Assembly (NCBI RefSeq): GCF_055900595.2
Contig: NZ_CM148325.1
Strand: one strand, 5' to 3'
Length of the DNA stretch: 64,000 nt
The notes under the pieces: model-generated
Seen by the model: the letters and a program-made list of their open reading frames with translations, nothing else
What the model was told of the DNA's origin: nothing
Databases searched by the model: none
Shown: positions 1,934-25,726 of the stretch, piece by piece
Numbering within the stretch: position 1 is the stretch's first letter
Layout: each line of letters begins with the position of its first letter
Made by a program: the position numbers and the translations under genes

Positions 1934-4900
1934 AGCGCTCGCTCCGGGCAGGCGAAGCGTTGCAATAGCCCGCGGTTCACCGGGTCAAAATCCCGTCCGG
2001 CGGTGATTTCCAGCACCACCCGCCGCCCGTCAAAACTGTACTCCACCTGCTGTGTTCCCCGTACCACCGTCTCCTGCGCGTTACCCGCATCCAGCAGGTG
2101 AAACAGCGCCCATGGCCCGTTAGTCAGCAACGTCGAGGTGTCCTGGCGGATGCGCGGGCTGGCGGTGATTTCCGCCATTGAGCCGTTGCGCGGCCCCGGC
2201 CAGTTCACTTTCAGCGGCCTGACCGGGCCGTGAGCGTAGCGAAGCACCTGGCCGTCAATGTCAATCACCAGTTCGGTGATGGCAGGGTCCATATCCACCA
2301 CCCGCACCTGCATCGCCCAGGAAAACTTTTTCCCGCCTTCCCCATTAAAAAAAACGCTGCGGATCTGTTTCGCCTCCTGAAACGGTGTCAGGTCCGGCCC
2401 AAGCAACGTCATGTTGCCTTCGGTCGGTTTGTAGCGCCACGGGTTGCTGGCGGTGTCCGCCAGTGGGGCCAGTTGCTTCGTCCAGAACGCATCCAGCACG
2501 CCGCCGCTGGCAAAGATATGGTTAAAATCGTCCGCGCTGACTTCCTGCGGGCTGTCGGTGAAGGGGTAGCGCCCGTCGATGGCGTCGCGGCACTCATCAC
2601 CGATCACCGCTTCCATCTGCGCGTTCAGCACTTCACCGGTGCCGGCGTTGATTTTTCGCGTTCCCTGCTGCGTGAGATCCAGCAGAATATTTTTCAGTGG
2701 CGCGGGCAGTTTTGCCGCCTCCAATTGCAGTTTATCCGCCGCAGAAATGCGGCCAGGTAATGTGCTCGCTGCCAGTGCACTATCAGCGATGGTGAGCTGG
2801 GTGTAATACTCATTGAGCATCGTCAGCAGCGAATTTAACTGCGGCGCGCCGCCGCCCTGCCCGCTGTCTGTCCGCCCGGAAACCACTTCCCGCAAGGCGG
2901 CGAAACGGTCATCCACCAGTGATTTCTCTAGCCGCTCTTCCGGGTGGATGTCCTGCAATAGCTTTGCCGTCTGCACTGCTTTTCCCACATTGCCGGAGAG
3001 CCGGTCCTGCGTGCGCTGGGCCATCTGCTTTTGTCTGGCCTGCGCATCCAGCGGCGGCACCAGCGTGGTCTGCTCCACCACCGCTTTACTCAGGCGCATC
3101 AGCGGGGAATCCGGCGAGGCCAGGGTACGCAGCACCTGAAGGTCATACGCCAGCCCGGGACTGCCGTCTTCCCCGGCACTGTTGATGCTGTGAATACTGG
3201 CCAGAAAATCCTGCCAGCGGCGGGCATATTCAGCCAGGTACAGGCGGCGTACCTCACGGGTAACCGGGAGTTCCTGCCCCGGCAACTGGCTCATCACAAT
3301 ATCCGTCGTTTTTTTTTGCGTGTTTTCCCGGCCCATCACCCAGGCGTCGTCCGCTGATGCGGCTGCGACAAACTCCGACAGCCGTTTGTCGAACAGTTCC
3401 CGGTAGCCTTCGCGAGTGAAGATGCCGGGCACGCCCCGATCCAGCGGCGCGCCATCCGTGCGGACAAAAACCGTTCCCGCATCCGCGCCCACAGCGCGAA
3501 CCAGCGAAAACTCCTGCGGTGCTTCGCTCTCCATGGAAGCCAGGGCTCGAGTGTAGATACGCTCGGTGCTGGTATGGCCGTCAAGGAAAGCTCGCGCCTG
3601 GCGGATCAGCCCCTCATCTTTTTCCCAGGGCAAATGCACCACGCGGCTGCCGTCAAACAGGGCATCGATATGCTCCAGCACGGCGGCGCGACCGCCGAAC
3701 TCCGCCACGCTGTCGCGGTTGCCCAGGTCGTTCAGCACCCAGGCGTGGATCTCCGCCGCGTTGTATTTATCCTCGTGGTCCTTATCGAGGTTCAGCAACA
3801 GATAAACATGCAGGGCGTCATAGGCGGCTTTGCTGTCCTGACGCGCAATCGCATCCGAAAGCACGTATTCCATGCGTTTCACCAGCGGTGGCAGCAGTAA
3901 CTGGTCCAGCAGACGGTCATACAGGGATGCGACGCTCTCCATCACCGGCGGAACGCTGTAAAGACCATAACACCAGGCCAGCGGCGGCGAGTCCGGGTCC
4001 AGTCCCGGCCATGCAGAGAGCGCCCGTGCCTGGTTCAGCAGGGCCGGAACAGGCTGCATAGCAGGTTTTCCGGTATAGGCTTTGACATCACCATCCAGTT
4101 GGGTCGTCCGGCTGGCGATTTCATTCAGATAACCGCTGTTCCCCTGCTGGCTACCCTGCATGCCCTGCCACAACCAGAAAGCCAGCGCCAGTACCAGCAG
4201 ATGCCCGCCAGTACGCAGCAGGCGATAACGCCAGGCCCATTGAAGATTCGGCTCCACCAGGTGCGCTTCGCGGAAGATAAACTGCGTCAGTAGATCGTGC
4301 AGGAAATAGCTGCGGTTGCCGTCCGGCAGGGTATGGGATGGGGAATCAGCCTTCCCTTTGATCGCCCGGACAAAACGCTGCCAGATGCCCGACTGGTCAG
4401 CCACGGCGTCTGCCTGCGCCTGCGCGGCGCTGGTAAAAAATACGCCGCGCAGGGTGTTGTTAAGCTGGGTGGCGTCAAATTTTGAGTCGAGGAAAATCTG
4501 CTCAATGGCTTCCAGCAGCGGCGCACCCAGCGCGGCAAATTCACGCGGGAAGCGGTAGAGCCGCTGGCGGCTTTGAAGGTCGTACTCTTCCTGCAACCGG
4601 GTATCCAGCCCCTGATCCAGCCGCAGCGTCAGGTTTGCCAGTTCCCGGCCACAGAGCGCATGCAGCGACTGCGGATCGCTGGCGTGACGCCTGCGGCTGT
4701 AAGGCAGGGTGAAGCCCCAAACCTGGGCGCGCAGGTGGCTGGTCAGCCCGTGGAAATACTCCGTAAAGCCCGGCAGCAGATCCATTTTGGTGACGACCAG
4801 ATAGACCGGAAAACGAATACCCAGCGTCTCCCGCAGTTCCGCCAGCCGCGCACGCAGGGCCGCACAGGCAGCCAGTCGTTCCGCCGGGGACTGCGCGGTC

Positions 4901-5796: not shown

Positions 5797-6083
5797 TATT
5801 GTTCAGAACTCCATGCGAGAATCAGTAATAGCAAAATGCCGCAAGCTGAAAAAATCCTTCCAGTACGGGCTACTGAAAGAAAATAAAGAGCAATCTGAAC
5901 AATTATCAAAATAAAATAAATCAACATTTTGATTATTTCTCTGTTCCCATTTCCCTGAGGCAACGTTGTCATTGAAGGATCCATATCCTGCATCCATTGA
6001 TACTCATTCCCGGAAAAAAGCATGATGATGATCAGACCCATAATGAATAACAACCATCCTGATATCTGAATTATTCTTCTCAC
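5796..6083 (-). CDS. Small predicted 3-TM inner-membrane protein of unknown function (SciR-position gene)
   Basis: 95-aa ORF with three hydrophobic segments (IIQISGWLLFIMGLIIIMLF, MLIYFILIIVQIALYFL, IFSACGILLLLILAW). Its stop overlaps the tssM start. Strongly AT-rich. Confidence 0.45.
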   Translation of the reverse strand: MRRIIQISGWLLFIMGLIIIMLFSGNEYQWMQDMDPSMTTLPQGNGNREIIKMLIYFILIIVQIALYFLSVARTGRIFSACGILLLLILAWSSEQ

Positions 6084-6091
6084 GAAGACTC

Positions 6092-6766
6092 CTAATGGGC
6101 GATGAGTAAATTAGAGAAATGCAACCAGTTGTTGACAATAAAATTGCCATAGCTGGTATCTTCCTTTATTTTCTCCAGAGTAAGCGACATACCCCGGTTA
6201 TAACGGGCACCAATAATTCTTATCTGCTCTTTCGTCAGGTGTGGTAAGGAGGACTGAAATTCATCTCTTTCAGCTAATTGATAAAGATGTCTGGCCACAA
6301 GTTGAATATTAAAAATATCATGCTGGAGGCAATTTGCCAGTTCACGCAATTGAGAGGTATCCATTTTTGACTCATCAAGCCCAAGCGTTCTGGCTGCGGT
6401 TCGCAATTGCATACTCACTGCACCAAAAGATGTTTTTTCTGGTCTCGAAGTTATTGTGATATGTTCATCAATCCACTCAGGCCCACTCCAGTCAATAGTC
6501 CGAGCATCAAATGCCAGCATATCTACAATACTGGGATCCCCCCCGACTTCTATCCAACACACACCTGCCAGTAAAGGTGCTGGCAAATTATATGTATTGG
6601 CAGCCGATGTTATCAGAAGATGGTTATGTTTTACCCAGCCATCTTTGAAATAACGCCCAAACGGTACACCACCGCCCCATTTTTTTGGCGCTAATTTCCA
6701 GAAAAGAAATTCGGTCACGCCCCATACCGGTGAATGATTCGATGCATTGCAGTCCAGATTATTCAT
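6092..6766 (-). CDS. Hypothetical protein with lysozyme/lytic-transglycosylase-like motifs (SciQ-position gene); candidate peptidoglycan-active accessory or effector
   Basis: ORF 6092-6775. ATG at 6766 has GGAG 8 nt upstream; an alternative GTG at 6775 overlaps the tssL stop. Motif series WIEVGG ... GAVSMQL ... GARYNRG is reminiscent of SLT-domain E / GLMQ / AYNxG motifs but with atypical spacing. No signal peptide. AT-rich. Confidence 0.4.
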   Translation of the reverse strand: MNNLDCNASNHSPVWGVTEFLFWKLAPKKWGGGVPFGRYFKDGWVKHNHLLITSAANTYNLPAPLLAGVCWIEVGGDPSIVDMLAFDARTIDWSGPEWIDEHITITSRPEKTSFGAVSMQLRTAARTLGLDESKMDTSQLRELANCLQHDIFNIQLVARHLYQLAERDEFQSSLPHLTKEQIRIIGARYNRGMSLTLEKIKEDTSYGNFIVNNWLHFSNLLIAH

Positions 6767-10518: not shown

Positions 10519-10753
10519 TTTCATTTCCTTATTTAGAATTACTTAAAAATAACCTCTGATTTATCTGTACATCTGGATACAGGTAAACCATTGCCGTACA
10601 GAACCCCCTCTCCTTAATTTCAGAAGAACAGAAGGCTGTATAATTTCCGGTACTGAAATACCGGGAAGATATTTATTTACCTTATAAATAAATCATCAAA
10701 ACAATAATTTTAGCCCTGCGTTTCTCACTCAATATATTCACAAAATAAATAAA

Positions 10754-12899: not shown

Positions 12900-13190
12900 T
12901 TAAAAATCATACGCAGAGAGTATTTTTATAATCTCTTTGTTTTCTTTGTACTTTTCCCGCAGCACAGGGAGTGATTTCTTCGCTGGAGGACACCAGGTAT
13001 CAACCCCCTTTTCGATGTCTCTTTTATCCTTCTCTGGTAAAGAACTGTCCCATTCACCAGCAAGATGCTGGCACATTTCCGCATTACTCAGAAAATGCTG
13101 CACATCCTGTGGTAAAGACGGTTCCCCCTGAACACTGAAAGCGAACATCATTAACAGGAATGTCCACAACACCGGATAACGAAATGTCAT
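12900..13190 (-). CDS. Hypothetical small secreted protein (signal peptide) between clpV and tssB
   Basis: 96-aa ORF with N-terminal signal-peptide-like segment MTFRYPVLWTFLLMMFAFSVQG followed by a charged C-terminal region. AT-rich. No known family recognised. Confidence 0.35.
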   Translation of the reverse strand: MTFRYPVLWTFLLMMFAFSVQGEPSLPQDVQHFLSNAEMCQHLAGEWDSSLPEKDKRDIEKGVDTWCPPAKKSLPVLREKYKENKEIIKILSAYDF

Positions 13191-13408
13191 ACTTAATGTC
13201 CATCAATTGACCAGTGCATGAGATATGCTCTGGCGGGAGGGCGATATGTTGCAGAGATACTGCCCCTTGCACGCGCATTACCAAGCGCGCGCAAAAAATT
13301 TTCTACCGATGCACGAAAAGTCCCCTGCAAATCATTAGTGGAAGAACTTACAGGAAAGCGACTGACCCACATTGCGCCACTTAATTCTTTTGCCATAAGG
13401 ATGCTCCA

Positions 13409-16042
13409 TTAATCCGTTTCAAAAATAATCTGTTCATCCTCATCAACACGAATGCGGATTTGCGTGATGGCCGTTTTCTCTGTCATCGCCTGCAACCAAT
13501 AACGGGACAGTTGTGGGAGGATATGTTGTTCGATATAGCCGATGAGCAAACGAGCGCCGGTTTCGTGCATCGGGCAGCGCGACACAATATGCGTAATCAG
13601 TTCATCGCCATACACCAGTGAAACGCCATGCTGCTCCGCCATCCGAGCCATCAATCTGCCAAGATGCAGGCGGGCAATAACACCACGCGCGGTCTCATCC
13701 AGCGGTAAATAAGGAATAACCGTCACACGCCCCAGGAAAGCCGCCGGGAAGTGTTTACGTAACTCCGGCATTAACGCCTCTTTTAGTCCTGCCGAATCAG
13801 GCATCAGCGCCGGATCCTCACAGAGCTGGCTGATAAGTTCCGCCCCCGCGTTAGTAGTCAACAACAGCGTGGTATTTTTGAAATCGATGTGGACACCTTC
13901 GCCGTCCTCCATCGCGCCTTTATCGAATACCTGGTAGAACAACTCGTGGACGTCGTGATGGGCTTTTTCAATTTCATCCAACAGCACTACACTCCAGGGG
14001 TGACGGCGTACGGCTTCCGTCAACACACCGCCTTCGCCATAGCCGACGTAGCCGGGCGGCGCGCCTTTCAGCGTGGAGACGGTGTGAGACTCCTGAAACT
14101 CGCTCATGTTGATGGTGATCAGGTTCTGCTCACCGCCGTAAATAGATTCCGCCAGCGCCAGCGCGGTCTCGGTCTTGCCGACACCGGACGGCCCGGCCAG
14201 CAGAAAGACGCCCATCGGTTTACGCGGGTCGCCTAACCCCGCCCGCGCGGTCTGAATACGCTCGCCAATCTGCGCCAGCGCATCCATCTGCCCGGTAACA
14301 CGCTGCGCCAAACGGGTGGGCAATTCCAGTATCTGACTGGCTTCATCTTTCACCATCCGTCCGGCGGGAATACCGGTCCAGTCAGAGACAATCTCTGCCA
14401 CCACGGTTGCACTGACTTCCGGGTACACGACGGGGTTTTCACCCTGCCAGCCTCTTAATGCCGTTTCTGCCTGTTGTAGAGTGATTTCGTCGCGCTCGCC
14501 AGGCGCTGCGCCGCGTTGCTCCTGTAAACTGCGAACCAACTCCAGTTCCTGCTGCCACCGCGCTTCGGTGTCAGAAAGATCGGCATTAAGCGATATAATC
14601 CGCGCCGTCAGTACATCGCCCCGCTCCGAGCGGATACCCATTTTTTCCTGCTTTAATAACAACTCCTGCTCCAGTTCGGCAGCGTTGAGCTGCTGGCGCA
14701 GATACTGGACTCTCGCAGGCGGGGTATGCAGCGACAGCGCTACACGGGCCGCCGCCGTATCCAGCAGGCTGATGGCCTTATCCGGTAGTTGCCGGGCCGG
14801 AATGTAACGGTGAGAAAGCTGTACGGCGGCACGCACGGCCTCATCAAGGATCAGCACGTCATGGTGTTTTTCAAGCGTGGTGACTAACCCGCGTACCATC
14901 TCAACAGCCGCAACCTCTTCCGGCTCAGCAACCTGCAATACCTGAAAACGCCGGGTCAGCGCCGGATCCTTTTCGATATGGCGTTTGTACTCGCTCCAGG
15001 TGGTTGCGCCGATGGTGCGCAGGGTGCCACGCGCCAGCGCCGGTTTCAGCAGGTTGGCAGCATCCCCCGTACCGGATGTACCACCAGCGCCCACCAGCGT
15101 GTGAACTTCATCAACAAAAAGGATCACCGGCTGCGGCGAGCGCGCGGCCTCTTCCAGCAACGCTTTCAGGCGGGATTCAAATTCACCCTTCATGGAGGCC
15201 CCAGCCAGCAGCGCTCCAACATCCAGTGACAGCAATCGCACGTTACGCAGTGACGGCGGTACTTCCCCCCCGGCAATCGCCAGCGCGAATCCTTCCACCA
15301 CTGCCGTTTTCCCGACCCCCGCTTCGCCGGTCAGTAGCGGGTTGTTCTGGCGACGGCGCAGCAGAATATCCGTCATAGTACGGATCTCGTGTTCGCGACC
15401 GGTGACCGGATCGATATTGCCTTCACGGGCCAGCGCAGTCATGTCCTGGCAGTATTTCGCCAGCGCGGATTTGCTTCCGGTTGATTCGCCGGCAAAGACC
15501 TGGCTAGCTTCCCCCGGTACTGCAGAATTTAAATCCGAGCCGTCATAAGGCATTTCTGTTAATTCAGGAGATGAAGTGATTAAAGACGGAAGAATATCTA
15601 ATAGTTCATCTACCGGTAGCTCTGCCAATGGCGCACAAATATTTTTTAACACCCGACACAATTCTGGCGTGGTTAACCAGGCAAGTAATAACCATCCACT
15701 ACGAATTTTTTGATCGCCAAAGCGGATACTTGCTAACATCCAGGCTTTTTCAACTGAAAGATCGATATGATGGGAAAAATCGTTAATTACACTCGCTCCG
15801 GCAGGCAATATATTCAATTGCTGAATTAACGCCTTCTCAACATCAGCAGATGTTATTTGATAATGTCGAAGCACATTGTGAATGTCATTCTCTGGTTGTT
15901 GTATTAACTGATGCAACCAATGCGTCAGTTCGACATAAGGGTTAGCGCGTAATTTACAGAACGTCGTCGCAGATTCCAAAGATCTAAACAAAGATTTGGT
16001 TAGCTTTCCATACAGTGCACTGCGCGAAACAGGAGTGTCCAT
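13409..16042 (-). CDS. clpV: T6SS AAA+ ATPase ClpV (TssH)
   Basis: 877-aa ORF with two AAA+ modules: Walker A GEAGVGKTA and GPSGVGKTE, Walker B DEVH and DEIEKAH; ClpB-like but located in the T6SS cluster. Confidence 0.93.
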   Translation of the reverse strand: MDTPVSRSALYGKLTKSLFRSLESATTFCKLRANPYVELTHWLHQLIQQPENDIHNVLRHYQITSADVEKALIQQLNILPAGASVINDFSHHIDLSVEKAWMLASIRFGDQKIRSGWLLLAWLTTPELCRVLKNICAPLAELPVDELLDILPSLITSSPELTEMPYDGSDLNSAVPGEASQVFAGESTGSKSALAKYCQDMTALAREGNIDPVTGREHEIRTMTDILLRRRQNNPLLTGEAGVGKTAVVEGFALAIAGGEVPPSLRNVRLLSLDVGALLAGASMKGEFESRLKALLEEAARSPQPVILFVDEVHTLVGAGGTSGTGDAANLLKPALARGTLRTIGATTWSEYKRHIEKDPALTRRFQVLQVAEPEEVAAVEMVRGLVTTLEKHHDVLILDEAVRAAVQLSHRYIPARQLPDKAISLLDTAAARVALSLHTPPARVQYLRQQLNAAELEQELLLKQEKMGIRSERGDVLTARIISLNADLSDTEARWQQELELVRSLQEQRGAAPGERDEITLQQAETALRGWQGENPVVYPEVSATVVAEIVSDWTGIPAGRMVKDEASQILELPTRLAQRVTGQMDALAQIGERIQTARAGLGDPRKPMGVFLLAGPSGVGKTETALALAESIYGGEQNLITINMSEFQESHTVSTLKGAPPGYVGYGEGGVLTEAVRRHPWSVVLLDEIEKAHHDVHELFYQVFDKGAMEDGEGVHIDFKNTTLLLTTNAGAELISQLCEDPALMPDSAGLKEALMPELRKHFPAAFLGRVTVIPYLPLDETARGVIARLHLGRLMARMAEQHGVSLVYGDELITHIVSRCPMHETGARLLIGYIEQHILPQLSRYWLQAMTEKTAITQIRIRVDEDEQIIFETD

Positions 16043-16374
16043 CTGTTACACCTAATGATGTAATAACATATAAATGATACATAAAAATAACTGTATCGAT
16101 TAAAACTTCTAATTAATAGAATTATCAAAAAGGCAGAATAAAACAATGATGCATATCACAGAACACAATGTAATATAGCAGGTAGTATCTTTTTCATGGT
16201 GATATTCAATAGAGCAAGCCAATTTCATACGCACCGTGAATATATTAAATTGTAAATCGCCACTATATATTTCCGTGAAAACTTATATTGATAAAGTAAA
16301 TTGATCAGCTTTGCTTATCTAAAAATTTAGAAAACTTATTCTTTTGAAAGAAACACTCTACACAGTGATACGCA
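16043..16374. promoter_or_regulatory. AT-rich divergent control region between the clpV operon and the fha-like/tssE-F-G-A operon
   Basis: About 330 bp of strongly AT-rich non-coding sequence flanked by divergently oriented start codons. Individual promoter elements not resolved. Confidence 0.5.
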
Positions 16375-17286
16375 ATGAAACCAAATATTACGTGGGAACT
16401 CCAAAAAATACAGGCGCATGGGATCGCCGATAACACAATTTACGCGACTGAAGGAACACAAATTATCTTCACCGTTACCTCTCCCTGGATTCCTGTTTTT
16501 GATGTGAATGATGATGTAAAGATTGCGCTCAGACTGACCCGCCACGAAGAAGCATGGTGGATTATCAATCAGTCTACCGAATATTGCTGTACGGTAAACG
16601 ACCAGATTGTGGAACCTCATCACCGTATGCGTCTGAATGAAGGCGACCTGATAGAATGGGGATTATCTTCATGGTGCCTTGTGCATGGCAATCCATCATC
16701 TCCGAACCTAAGCGCAGTAAAGACATCGCAGACTGCCACCACGTCGGAAACAATAACCGAATATCTGGATCTGGATTGGTTCAGGCAGCAGCATCTGACA
16801 TCACAAAATCCATTCGATATCATTCCTGTTCATGGAGCCTCCTCCACCGGAGAAGATGCGGAAAAAGAAAATGCCCTGACCCGACTTTATCAGGAATACC
16901 GCGAAGCGTTGTTATCTCCCGAACAAGATCTTCATCGCCATGCTGATCCTTTTCCCTTTAACGAAGAACCCTCCTCGCAGGATCTGGATTCATTGCGTGA
17001 CCTGGTCACCGAAGCCGAGACATTGCAGGATATGGTCACTGGCGGGTTAAGCATTGACGCTATTCTCAATGTACTGGATGCCACCGGCGAAGATGAAACT
17101 ATCTGGCCTGTCGAAAACACTCCCCCTGACATCCTGCATTTACTTTCCCCGGAATACGCCCCGGAAACAGCGCATAACACCGTTCTGCCCGACCTGACAC
17201 GCAAAGAGCATCGCATCATTGGCATTGACAGCCATTACCGGATAAACCCGGCACAACACGGAGATACCTCTCATGATAAACAATAA
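16375..17286 (+). CDS. T6SS-associated hypothetical protein, possibly degenerate FHA-domain (TagH/Fha-like); SciA position
   Basis: 303-aa ORF, first gene of the plus operon. N-terminal region has weak FHA-like character (RLNEGDLIEWG); acidic/proline-rich C-terminal half. Assignment is weak. Confidence 0.3.
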   Translation: MKPNITWELQKIQAHGIADNTIYATEGTQIIFTVTSPWIPVFDVNDDVKIALRLTRHEEAWWIINQSTEYCCTVNDQIVEPHHRMRLNEGDLIEWGLSSWCLVHGNPSSPNLSAVKTSQTATTSETITEYLDLDWFRQQHLTSQNPFDIIPVHGASSTGEDAEKENALTRLYQEYREALLSPEQDLHRHADPFPFNEEPSSQDLDSLRDLVTEAETLQDMVTGGLSIDAILNVLDATGEDETIWPVENTPPDILHLLSPEYAPETAHNTVLPDLTRKEHRIIGIDSHYRINPAQHGDTSHDKQ

Positions 17287-24896: not shown

Positions 24897-25655
<759 letters not shown>

Positions 25656-25726
25656 TAAAACTTTCTTGTCATCGGCTCCGTTCGCCGTTATGATCGGTCG
25701 TCTTTTAAGCAACTATTGACACACAC

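What the first reader, a model, noticed from the sequence alone, without database searches (positions are those of the whole stretch)
16043..16374. Strongly AT-rich divergent control region for the two T6SS operons
About 330 bp between the divergently transcribed clpV and fha-like genes is much more AT-rich than the surrounding island and has several A/T tracts. This is the expected place for H-NS silencing and regulated divergent promoters controlling the whole apparatus.
Basis: inference. Interest (0 to 1): 0.4.

Follow-up and report, generated by a model that had tools for sequence, protein, structure and literature searches.

The report
AT-rich T6SS divergent promoter region
This very AT-rich 332-bp gap is the shared control region between the two back-to-back operons of a Salmonella SPI-6-type type VI secretion island in E. 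coli; the matching Salmonella region is already known to bind H-NS and Fur, so the finding is real but largely expected.

Summary
Window 16043-16374 is exactly the gap between tssH/clpV (minus strand) and the next plus-strand gene. It has 27.7% GC against 54.5% for the island, the lowest of any 332-bp stretch in the window.

The island sits at tRNA-aspV and has the gene order of Salmonella SPI-6. It occurs in only about 2% of complete E. coli genomes and is not the well-studied EHEC T6SS-2. The "fha-like" gene is TagK, with only a weak FHA signal.

H-NS silencing rests on orthology. Published EMSA primers for the Salmonella clpV promoter map onto the clpV-proximal half of the matching gap, and reviews report Fur binding there. 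Nothing could be tested in E. coli itself.

Twelve orthologous gaps all have 23-30% GC but diverge in sequence, apart from one invariant core: AAACA-ATGAT-N4-ATCA, exactly 23 bp, then TAnnAT. On the minus strand the core reads as a clpV -10 element. On the plus strand it looks like a CRP/FNR-type site about 42 bp upstream of a tagK start.

No Fur box, H-NS motif or curvature exceeds what the base composition gives. No sigma-54 promoter, sRNA or conserved small ORF is present. "Controls the whole apparatus" overstates the case, because a second AT-rich gap lies upstream of hcp.

Verdict: an ordinary new member of a known kind.

The parts
16043..16374 (.). AT-rich divergent intergenic control region, 332 bp, 27.7% GC
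   Evidence: Orthologous gaps in 11 other taxa are 330-423 bp and 23-30% GC.
15526..16525 (.). Extended AT-rich patch of about 1 kb (100-bp windows below 42% GC), covering the gap, the 5' ~500 nt of clpV and the 5' ~150 nt of tagK
   Evidence: The extension into clpV is specific to the Escherichia lineage: the first 600 nt of clpV have GC 0.40-0.47, against 0.52-0.60 in Salmonella.
13409..16042 (-). tssH/clpV, first gene of the leftward block (clpV, two small ORFs, tssB, tssC, hcp, tssJ, tssK, tssL, tssM, tagF)
   Evidence: TIGR03345 at 1220 bits; RefSeq annotation of the 99.9% identical strain R32_14_1F.
16375..17286 (+). tagK, first gene of the rightward operon tagK-tagJ-tssE-tssF-tssG-tssA
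   Evidence: NF033418 at 545 bits; weak FHA similarity only; downstream genes overlap or lie within 15 bp of each other.
16141..16161 (.). Conserved core AAACAATGATGCATATCACAG. AAACAATGAT, ATCA and the final G are invariant in all 12 orthologous gaps
   Evidence: Alignment A3. This is the best-conserved 12-column window inside the gap (0.96, as high as the coding flanks). It is invariant among E. coli variants.
16146..16159 (.). Dyad ATGAT-N4-ATCAC centred at 16152.5; candidate site for a dimeric CRP/FNR-type regulator (inferred)
   Evidence: Only the central N4 varies across taxa. It matches 8 of 10 specified bases of both the FNR and the CRP consensus, but single-sequence matches are not above chance (P 0.15-0.5).
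16183..16188 (+). -10-like hexamer TAGTAT (TA[A/G]nAT in all 12 taxa), always exactly 23 bp to the right of the dyad; candidate tagK promoter with a start near 16195
   Evidence: No gaps occur between the dyad and the hexamer in A3. The geometry puts the dyad centre near -42.5. The start site is not mapped.
16146..16151 (-). -10-like hexamer CATCAT for clpV (TATCAT in Salmonella, Citrobacter and Enterobacter), with -35-like ATTACA at 16169-16174 after a 17-bp spacer; implies a 5'UTR of about 97 nt
   Evidence: Top-scoring minus-strand sigma-70 PWM hit in Salmonella, C. koseri and Enterobacter ENT03, and third-ranked in Enterobacter kpr-6. The distance from the dyad to the clpV ATG is 103-107 nt in 11 of 12 taxa. 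It is weak in the window (8 of 12 consensus matches) and was not flagged by the simple scan.
16046..16063 (-). Hairpin UUACAUC-AUUA-GGUGUAA in the clpV leader that buries the Shine-Dalgarno sequence (AGGUG)
   Evidence: 96% of cells paired in 11 sequences against 34-53% for slid controls; two pairs show compensatory changes; present in the MFE fold.
16108..16126 (.). Best Fur-box-like match, TCTAATTAATAGAATTATC, 13 of 19
   Evidence: Not above composition-matched shuffles (P=0.28) and found at this position only in three of the four Escherichia sequences.
16321..16345 (.). Three A/T tracts spaced 10-11 bp apart (A5 at 16321, A4 at 16331, T4 at 16342); predicted curvature peak at 16325
   Evidence: The peak of 28.5 degrees exceeds the window's 99th percentile but not shuffles of the gap (P=0.20).
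10525..10753 (-). Second AT-rich gap (about 32% GC) between tssC and hcp; candidate internal promoter or processing region
   Evidence: In Salmonella hcp1 has promoter activity of its own (PMC10657408).

Best explanation
The gap is the shared promoter and operator region of the two divergent operons of a SPI-6-type T6SS island inserted at tRNA-aspV in a minority of E. coli strains.

Its extreme AT-richness, together with the roughly 1-kb AT-rich patch around it, makes it a nucleation platform for H-NS (and StpA). H-NS coats the DNA and keeps both promoters off under standard conditions. Expression then needs relief of silencing, as in Salmonella, where c-di-GMP, bile, arginine and low iron acting through Fur all contribute.

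Inside the gap one short core has been held constant while everything else drifted: AAACA-ATGAT-N4-ATCA, 23 bp, TAnnAT. I read this core as the promoter heart of the region. On the minus strand, ATGAT(A/G) is the -10 element (TATCAT or CATCAT) of a clpV promoter that gives a leader of about 97 nt. The end of that leader folds into a hairpin over the ribosome-binding site. On the plus strand, TAnnAT is the -10 of the tagK operon promoter. This promoter has no usable -35 element. It has instead a dyad centred near -42.5, which is the layout of a class II promoter activated by a CRP/FNR-family dimer.

Shown here: the composition, the boundaries, the synteny and orthology, the conservation pattern and its fixed spacing. 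Shown only in Salmonella by others: H-NS and Fur binding and derepression. Inferred: H-NS occupancy in E. coli, both start sites, the identity of any protein at the dyad, and the role of the hairpin.
For: Composition and boundaries.

Identity of the island: 99.9% match to E. coli R32_14_1F, annotated tssH and tagK, with aspV, dnaQ and rnhA next to it. SPI-6 is adjacent to aspV and SciG is the ClpV homologue (PMC2907695). The Salmonella locus has the same gene order.

H-NS and Fur at the orthologue: PMC10657408 and its supplementary primers. The reverse primer matches L008 exactly at 3628-3648, and the forward primer matches near 3788-3812 by eye with one indel. This probe covers the conserved core. 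Reviews.

AT-richness is conserved at 23-30% GC in 12 taxa while mean column identity is only 57%.

The invariant core and the exact 23-bp spacing occur in 12 of 12 taxa, and the distance to the clpV ATG is near-constant. The minus-strand PWM hit is top-scoring in three distant taxa.

The composite motif is specific to this locus: 24 of 40 metagenome matches are clpV-tagK gaps and the other 16 lie in unrelated contigs.

Hairpin. The core is invariant within E. coli.
Against: There are no occupancy, start-site or expression data for any E. coli carrying this island.

The simple sigma-70 scan finds nothing in the gap. In the window my PWM ranks the two proposed promoters below other candidates, for example a minus-strand hit with -10 TAGAGT near 16355 that is seen only in the Escherichia sequences.

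In the Escherichia lineage the proposed clpV -10 has C instead of T at its first position.

Dyad matches to FNR and CRP are no better than chance in any single sequence. A site that overlaps the clpV -10 while activating tagK would push the two operons in opposite directions, which is awkward for one machine.

The H-NS high-affinity motif and predicted curvature are not enriched beyond composition.

The two primary Salmonella papers (Brunet 2015, Wang 2019) could not be read. I do not know where their footprints lie, or whether the core is already described there.
Confidence: 0.72

Rival explanations
1. Fur is the main specific regulator. The conserved core, or the AT-rich stretch at 16108-16126, is a Fur operator overlapping the clpV promoter, so the system is switched on by iron limitation, with H-NS only as background.
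For: Fur is reported to bind the Salmonella clpV promoter directly and to repress it. The core contains AATGAT(A), part of the Fur consensus, and is one of the three best Fur matches in Salmonella (11/19) and in L012 (12/19). The window's best match is 13/19 at 16108-16126, and 14/19 in Escherichia sp. MOD1 with P=0.04.
Against: No Fur match exceeds composition-matched shuffles in 11 of 12 sequences. The 16108-16126 match appears only in Escherichia sequences. TGAT and ATCA are 4 nt apart in the core, not the 7 nt of the 7-1-7 Fur operator (and direct reading). In Salmonella, induction by c-di-GMP, bile and arginine persists in a fur mutant but is lost in an hns mutant.
Confidence: 0.3
2. The conserved core is only basal promoter sequence (the -10, discriminator and start region of the clpV promoter) and no dedicated transcription factor binds it. 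Regulation is entirely by H-NS coating and its relief.
For: On the minus strand the invariant ATCATTGTTT coincides with the best sigma-70 PWM hit in three distant taxa. The core sits at a near-constant 103-107 nt from the clpV ATG. Consensus matches for FNR, CRP and Fur are all within chance.
Against: This does not explain why ATCA (in the spacer of that promoter) and the symmetric outer C/G are invariant while the four central bases vary. It also does not explain why a TAnnAT hexamer is kept exactly 23 bp away in 12 of 12 taxa, in a gap that otherwise accumulates indels.
Confidence: 0.3
3. The AT-richness is a passive by-product of relaxed selection and AT-biased mutation in non-coding DNA, and the promoters are ordinary and essentially unregulated.
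For: Intergenic DNA in enterobacteria is generally more AT-rich than coding DNA (general knowledge). H-NS motif counts, TpA frequency and curvature do not exceed what the composition predicts.
Against: 27.7% GC is the extreme of the whole 64-kb window. The same 23-30% is kept in 12 taxa whose sequences have otherwise diverged to 57% mean column identity. The orthologous fragment binds H-NS, and its genes are derepressed in an hns mutant in Salmonella.
Confidence: 0.07
4. The gap encodes a small RNA or small protein rather than, or in addition to, promoters.
For: Mechanical ORFs of 41-48 aa exist on the minus strand.
Against: There is no credible Rfam match; the only hit at E<=1 is a sub-threshold snoRNA match inside clpV, outside the gap. 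The small ORFs are interrupted by stop codons in E. coli E69, Escherichia E1V33, Enterobacter and Salmonella. No terminator-like site is present.
Confidence: 0.03

Closest known systems
Salmonella enterica SPI-6 T6SS clpV(sciG)-tagK(sciF) intergenic region, the 'clpV promoter' (H-NS: Brunet 2015, Li 2023; Fur: Wang 2019)
   Same: Same chromosomal site (aspV), same gene order on both sides, and the same divergent layout. GC is similar (27.2% in Salmonella, 27.7% here). The invariant core AAACAATGAT-N4-ATCA, 23 bp, TAnnAT sits at the same distance from the clpV ATG. The published H-NS EMSA probe covers the part that aligns with window positions ~16038-16222.
   Different: Outside the core the sequence is largely unalignable, and the gap is 35 bp shorter here (332 against 367 bp). 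The clpV -10 is CATCAT here and TATCAT in Salmonella. The GATC (Dam) site inside the Salmonella dyad is absent here. The AT-rich patch extends about 500 nt into clpV only in the Escherichia lineage. TagK is only 55-56% identical. No experiments exist for the E. coli version.
EHEC O157:H7 / Shigella sonnei T6SS-2 bidirectional promoter between tssB and hcp (H-NS-repressed)
   Same: It is also an H-NS-silenced divergent promoter region in a T6SS island of E. coli, and the EHEC island is also associated with aspV (PMC13141884; PMC10924462; PMC2907695).
   Different: It belongs to a different T6SS subtype with different flanking genes (tssB and hcp, with clpV inside the tssB operon). No sequence similarity was found: a sensitive blastn of this gap hits only 119 of 5426 complete E. 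coli genomes, all with tssH and tagK as neighbours where the flanks were listed.
EAEC sci1 T6SS promoter with overlapping Fur boxes and Dam GATC sites (Brunet 2011, PMC3145626)
   Same: A T6SS promoter in E. coli under Fur control. The Salmonella, Citrobacter and Enterobacter versions of the core carry a GATC inside the dyad.
   Different: It is a single-direction promoter upstream of tssB in another T6SS subtype. In the window the core has no GATC (the only one in the gap is at 16303) and no Fur box above chance.
Class II CRP- or FNR-dependent promoters (activator dimer centred near -41.5, replacing the -35 element)
   Same: The dyad is TGAT-N4-ATCA with variable central bases. The distance to a -10-like hexamer is fixed, placing the dyad centre at about -42.5. 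No recognisable -35 is present (geometry from general knowledge).
   Different: The bases that discriminate CRP (G) from FNR (T) are A on the left arm and mostly C on the right arm. Neither consensus is matched above chance. The spacing is 1 bp longer than the canonical -41.5. Neither the start site nor any binding has been shown.

Membership tests
SPI-6-type T6SS clpV-tagK divergent regulatory region | Lies between divergently transcribed tssH/clpV and tagK, in an island with SPI-6 gene order inserted at tRNA-aspV | tested here: met
   ClpV N-terminus is 80% and TagK 55-56% identical to Salmonella.
SPI-6-type T6SS clpV-tagK divergent regulatory region | Sequence homology of the non-coding region itself | tested here: met
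   An invariant 10+4+1-nt core and a TAnnAT hexamer at fixed spacing occur in 12 of 12 taxa including Salmonella. The rest of the gap is poorly alignable.
H-NS-silenced xenogeneic promoter region | Markedly AT-rich DNA (well above the genome average) over hundreds of bp within horizontally acquired DNA | tested here: met
   72.3% AT over 332 bp, within a roughly 1-kb patch below 42% GC. The island is present in 119-120 of 5426 complete E. coli genomes and lies next to a tRNA gene.
H-NS-silenced xenogeneic promoter region | H-NS occupancy in vivo and derepression in an hns mutant | not testable with these tools
   Shown only for the Salmonella orthologue (EMSA, qRT-PCR in an hns mutant, earlier ChIP-chip).
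H-NS-silenced xenogeneic promoter region | High-affinity nucleation motif (tCG(t/a)T(a/t)AATT) or intrinsic curvature beyond what composition gives | tested here: not met
   There are 6 motif hits at up to 2 mismatches against 3.7 in shuffles (P=0.16). Curvature is in the top 0.9% of the window but not above shuffles of the gap (P 0.14-0.20). The motif and the wedge parameters were recalled from memory. These features are not strictly required for H-NS binding.
Fur-repressed promoter | A Fur box (GATAATGATAATCATTATC, or 7-1-7) clearly above background and conserved in position | tested here: inconclusive
   The best match is 13/19 (P=0.28) and Escherichia-only. The conserved core scores 11-12/19 in Salmonella and L012.
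Fur-repressed promoter | Fur binding and iron-dependent expression | not testable with these tools
   Reported for the Salmonella clpV promoter (Wang 2019, cited). That paper is not held.
Class II CRP/FNR-dependent promoter | Dyad matching TGTGA-N6-TCACA or TTGAT-N4-ATCAA | tested here: inconclusive
   8 of 10 specified bases match either consensus, the same site in 11 of 12 taxa, but each match is within chance (P 0.15-0.5). The conservation pattern (arms fixed, centre free) is the stronger argument.
Class II CRP/FNR-dependent promoter | Site centred near -41.5 relative to a mapped start, with a weak or absent -35 | tested here: inconclusive
   The centre is at -42.5 relative to a start predicted from the conserved TAnnAT, and no -35 is recognisable. 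The start site is not mapped.
Sigma-54-dependent T6SS promoter | GG-N10-GC core (TGGCAC-N5-TTGCW) | tested here: not met
   The best match has 4 mismatches and no GG..GC core occurs in 15991-16430.
EAEC sci1-type Fur/Dam epigenetic switch | GATC sites overlapping Fur boxes at the promoter | tested here: not met
   The only GATC in the gap is at 16303, away from any Fur-like match. The GATC inside the dyad of other genera is CATATC here.

The most novel reading that the evidence does not exclude
The invariant dyad CAATGAT-N4-ATCAnnG, kept exactly 23 bp from a -10-like hexamer in every SPI-6-type T6SS island from Escherichia, Salmonella, Citrobacter and Enterobacter, is an undescribed operator for a core-genome CRP/FNR-family regulator. 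It would couple the baseplate operon (tagK to tssA) to oxygen or carbon status in the gut while overlapping the clpV -10. A conserved hairpin over the clpV ribosome-binding site would add a translational checkpoint. Together these would form a specific switch layered under generic H-NS silencing.
Probability: 0.25. Interest if true: 0.45.

Novelty: new member of a known kind. Interest (0 to 1): 0.25.

Why it matters
The mechanism itself is not new. The value here is practical.

The SPI-6-type T6SS occurs in a small share (about 2%) of E. coli, including livestock, mouse and human isolates. It is not one of the three T6SS subtypes usually described for E. coli, so its regulation has not been studied there.

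Knowing that its control region is orthologous to the H-NS- and Fur-bound clpV promoter of Salmonella tells an experimenter where to swap promoters or place reporters to switch the system on. It also tells them which 50 bp to mutate first.

The conserved core and the hairpin over the ribosome-binding site are cheap, testable leads. They might explain why removing H-NS alone often does not give full T6SS activity.

Tried and rejected
- **Simple sigma-70 and terminator scan of the gap:** no hits. I replaced it with my own PWM scan across orthologues.
- **Rfam at permissive E-value:** only a sub-threshold snoRNA match inside clpV.
- **Short repeats in the gap:** only short two-copy matches typical of AT-rich DNA.
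- **Sigma-54 promoter:** none.
- **Small ORFs 16109-16234 and 16305-16436 (minus strand):** broken by stop codons in relatives.
- **Fur, 7-1-7 Fur, CRP and FNR consensus counts:** none above composition-matched shuffles in single sequences.
- **H-NS high-affinity motif and TpA frequency:** as expected from composition.
- **Curvature with the Bolshoy wedge model** (parameters recalled from memory; sanity-checked on phased A-tracts): high relative to the window, but not relative to shuffles of the gap.
- **EHEC and S. sonnei T6SS literature:** concerns a different cluster whose divergent promoter lies between tssB and hcp.
- **Primary papers:** Brunet 2015, Wang 2019 and Kroger 2012 are not held, so published footprints and Salmonella start sites could not be compared with the core.
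- **Literature search for FNR control of SPI-6:** nothing relevant.
- **Genome-collection scan with a TagK profile:** only 6 loci, so I added loci by exact-protein look-up.
- **Metagenome scan with the composite motif:** found no additional regulon members. The non-T6SS hits lie in unrelated contigs.
- **Other TGAT-N4-ATCA sites in the window** (6023, 14110, 45511, 46633): 5 against 0.93 expected. The one at 14110 lies inside clpV, 6023 appears to lie inside an annotated small gene, and the other two were not examined. None was pursued.

Full report
**Observation.** The gap 16043-16374 is bounded by tssH/clpV (13409..16042, minus strand) and a plus-strand ORF at 16375..17286. Both start at the first available start codon of their open frames. 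It is 332 bp with 27.7% GC, against 52.3% for the window and 54.5% for the island. That places it at the 0.06th percentile of all 332-bp windows, and the lowest window of all (16058-16389, 26.8%) lies within it. It contains nine homopolymeric A or T runs of at least 4 bases. The AT-rich patch is wider than the gap. It runs from about 15526 to 16525 and covers the first ~170 codons of clpV, where third-position GC is 0.32-0.46 against 0.52-0.80 further on.

**What the locus is.** The window is E. coli chromosome, 99.9% identical to strain R32_14_1F over the 1-kb test region. RefSeq annotation of that strain gives tssA-tssG-tssF-tssE-tagJ-tagK on one strand. The other strand carries tssH, two small ORFs, tssB, tssC, hcp, tssJ, tssK, tssL, tssM and tagF. 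The island lies next to tRNA-Asp (aspV), dnaQ and rnhA. NCBIfam confirms TssH (1220 bits) and TagK (545 bits). Pfam FHA gives i-E 0.0016 over residues 53-96, and 13 of 16 homologues reach E<=0.1 but none reaches 0.001.

The gene order and the aspV site are those of Salmonella SPI-6, where SciG is ClpV (PMC2907695; Salmonella locus L008). This is not the EHEC or S. sonnei T6SS-2, whose H-NS-repressed bidirectional promoter lies between tssB and hcp (PMC13141884; PMC10924462). The gap is found in only 119 of 5426 complete E. coli genomes, at 93.7-100% identity and always on the chromosome.

**Evidence from the orthologue.** In S. Typhimurium, hns deletion raises clpV, hcp1, tae4 and vgrG expression. 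H-NS shifts the clpV promoter fragment in EMSA, and c-di-GMP blocks that binding. Fur represses clpV, reportedly by direct binding, and induction by bile and arginine persists in a fur mutant but not in an hns mutant (PMC10657408; reviews).

The paper's EMSA primers place the probe on my Salmonella locus. The reverse primer matches exactly at L008 3628-3648, across the clpV start codon. The forward primer matches near 3788-3812 with a 1-nt indel, which I read by eye because the mismatch search failed. The probe is therefore the clpV-proximal ~185 bp of the 367-bp Salmonella gap. By alignment this corresponds to roughly 16038-16222 in the window.

H-NS recognises AT-rich DNA by minor-groove shape rather than by a strict sequence, and it is nearly identical in the two genera (general knowledge). 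Transfer of this result to E. coli is therefore likely, but it remains an inference.

**Comparative anatomy.** I collected orthologous gaps from three other Escherichia lineages, two Enterobacter, two Citrobacter, Salmonella and three unnamed assemblies. All are 330-423 bp and 23-30% GC, yet mean column identity is only 57% and indels are frequent. Composition is thus conserved while sequence is not. This argues against pure neutrality.

One internal block stands out: AAACAATGAT-N4-ATCA-n-n-G (window 16141-16161). It is invariant in all 12 sequences and as conserved as the coding flanks. The invariant positions form a dyad (C..TGAT....ATCA..G) and only the central four bases vary. Exactly 23 bp to its right, every sequence has TA[A/G]nAT (TAGTAT at 16183-16188) with no gaps in between. 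The distance from the dyad to the clpV ATG is 103-107 nt in 11 of 12 taxa, whereas the distance to the tagK ATG varies from 184 to 273 nt. Within E. coli these elements are invariant.

A metagenome scan with the composite motif returned 40 stretches. Of these, 24 are clpV-tagK gaps and 16 lie in unrelated contigs with no clpV or tagK nearby, so the composite is specific to this locus.

**Reading the core.** On the minus strand the block reads GTGATCTG-TATCAT-TGTTT in Salmonella. With TTGCTA 16 bp upstream, this is the top sigma-70 PWM hit in Salmonella and C. koseri; Enterobacter ENT03 has the same -10 with TTGTGA as its top hit, and in Enterobacter kpr-6 it ranks third. In the window the same position gives ATTACA-17-CATCAT, only 8 of 12 consensus matches. 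That explains why the simple scan found nothing. This would start the clpV transcript near 16139.

On the plus strand, TAnnAT is a plausible -10 for the tagK operon with a start near 16195 and no usable -35. The dyad would then be centred at about -42.5, which is the layout of class II CRP/FNR-dependent promoters (general knowledge). The dyad matches 8 of 10 specified bases of both consensus sequences. These matches are within chance for any single sequence (P 0.15-0.5), and the bases that discriminate CRP from FNR are ambiguous.

The core could also be the Fur site reported for Salmonella, since it is among the three best Fur matches there. At 11/19 it is not above chance, and its arms are spaced 4 nt apart rather than 7. 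I could not read the primary papers to check this. These readings are not mutually exclusive.

**Tests that add nothing to composition.** The best Fur match in the window is 13/19 at 16108-16126, with P=0.28, and it is Escherichia-only. The H-NS high-affinity motif gives 6 hits at up to 2 mismatches against 3.7 in shuffles (P=0.16), and TpA frequency equals the compositional expectation. Predicted curvature was computed with the Bolshoy wedge model using parameters recalled from memory and sanity-checked on phased A-tracts. It puts the gap in the top 0.9% of the window, with a 28.5-degree peak at 16325 where three tracts are 10-11 bp apart. Shuffles of the gap do as well (P 0.14-0.20). No sigma-54 core is present. 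There is no credible Rfam hit and no terminator, and the small ORFs are not conserved.

**Extra element.** The last 18 nt of the clpV leader (16046-16063, minus strand) form a 7-bp hairpin whose 3' arm contains the Shine-Dalgarno AGGUG. Across 11 sequences 96% of cells pair, against 34-53% when the partner is slid. Two adjacent pairs show compensatory changes in Salmonella and L012, probably a single evolutionary event. The hairpin appears in the MFE fold, although the leader as a whole is not unusually stable (z = -0.98). This is suggestive rather than proven.

**Scope of control.** The rightward genes overlap or lie within 15 bp of each other, so a single operon is likely. The leftward block is interrupted by a 229-bp, ~32% GC gap before hcp (10525-10753). 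In Salmonella, hcp1, tae4 and vgrG have promoter activity of their own. The divergent gap is therefore the main control region but probably not the only one.

**Verdict.** It is a new member of a known kind: an H-NS-silenced, AT-rich divergent T6SS promoter region of the SPI-6 type. The conserved dyad with its -10 module and the leader hairpin are the only parts that might be new. Interest is low to moderate.

Noticed in passing
window 16046-16063 (minus strand): A conserved 7-bp hairpin in the clpV leader buries the Shine-Dalgarno sequence. It is 96% paired in 11 orthologues, with two compensatory pairs in Salmonella and L012. It could be a translational checkpoint or an RNA thermometer.
   Followed up: partly
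window 10525-10753: A second AT-rich gap (about 32% GC) lies between tssC and hcp. It contains a GC-rich palindromic stem-loop at 10644-10667. It is a likely internal promoter or processing site for hcp and the genes downstream.
   Followed up: partly
window 15526-16042; L002-L013: The first ~500-600 nt of clpV are AT-rich (GC 0.40-0.47, GC3 down to 0.32) only in the Escherichia-lineage islands. Salmonella, Citrobacter and Enterobacter have 0.44-0.60 there, although the protein is about 80% identical.
   Followed up: partly
L016-L055 (metagenome loci); window 16375-17286: Across E. coli-type loci the ClpV N-terminus stays 90.8-100% identical while TagK falls into classes near 100, 92, 83 and 74%. 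The island looks mosaic, with the AT-rich gap as the junction between differently diverged halves.
   Followed up: no
L011 3663-4000: In one assembly the tagK operon lies next to an Rhs-repeat gene and a phage-type integrase instead of clpV, so the divergent arrangement has been broken there.
   Followed up: no
window 25325-25660: The 3' third of the core gene gloB (24900-25655) drops to 31-33% GC. This is the second-lowest stretch in the window and lies outside the island.
   Followed up: no
window 5843-6174: An AT-rich stretch (35.5% GC) lies just upstream of tssM and overlaps a small annotated hypothetical gene. It carries another TGAT-N4-ATCA match at 6023-6034.
   Followed up: partly
window 12900-13396 (minus strand): Two small ORFs (96 and 67 aa) lie between clpV and tssB. 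They are absent from the Salmonella locus, where tssB follows clpV directly. The 96-aa product has a faint thioredoxin-like (StoA CxxC) match far below the family cut-off.
   Followed up: no
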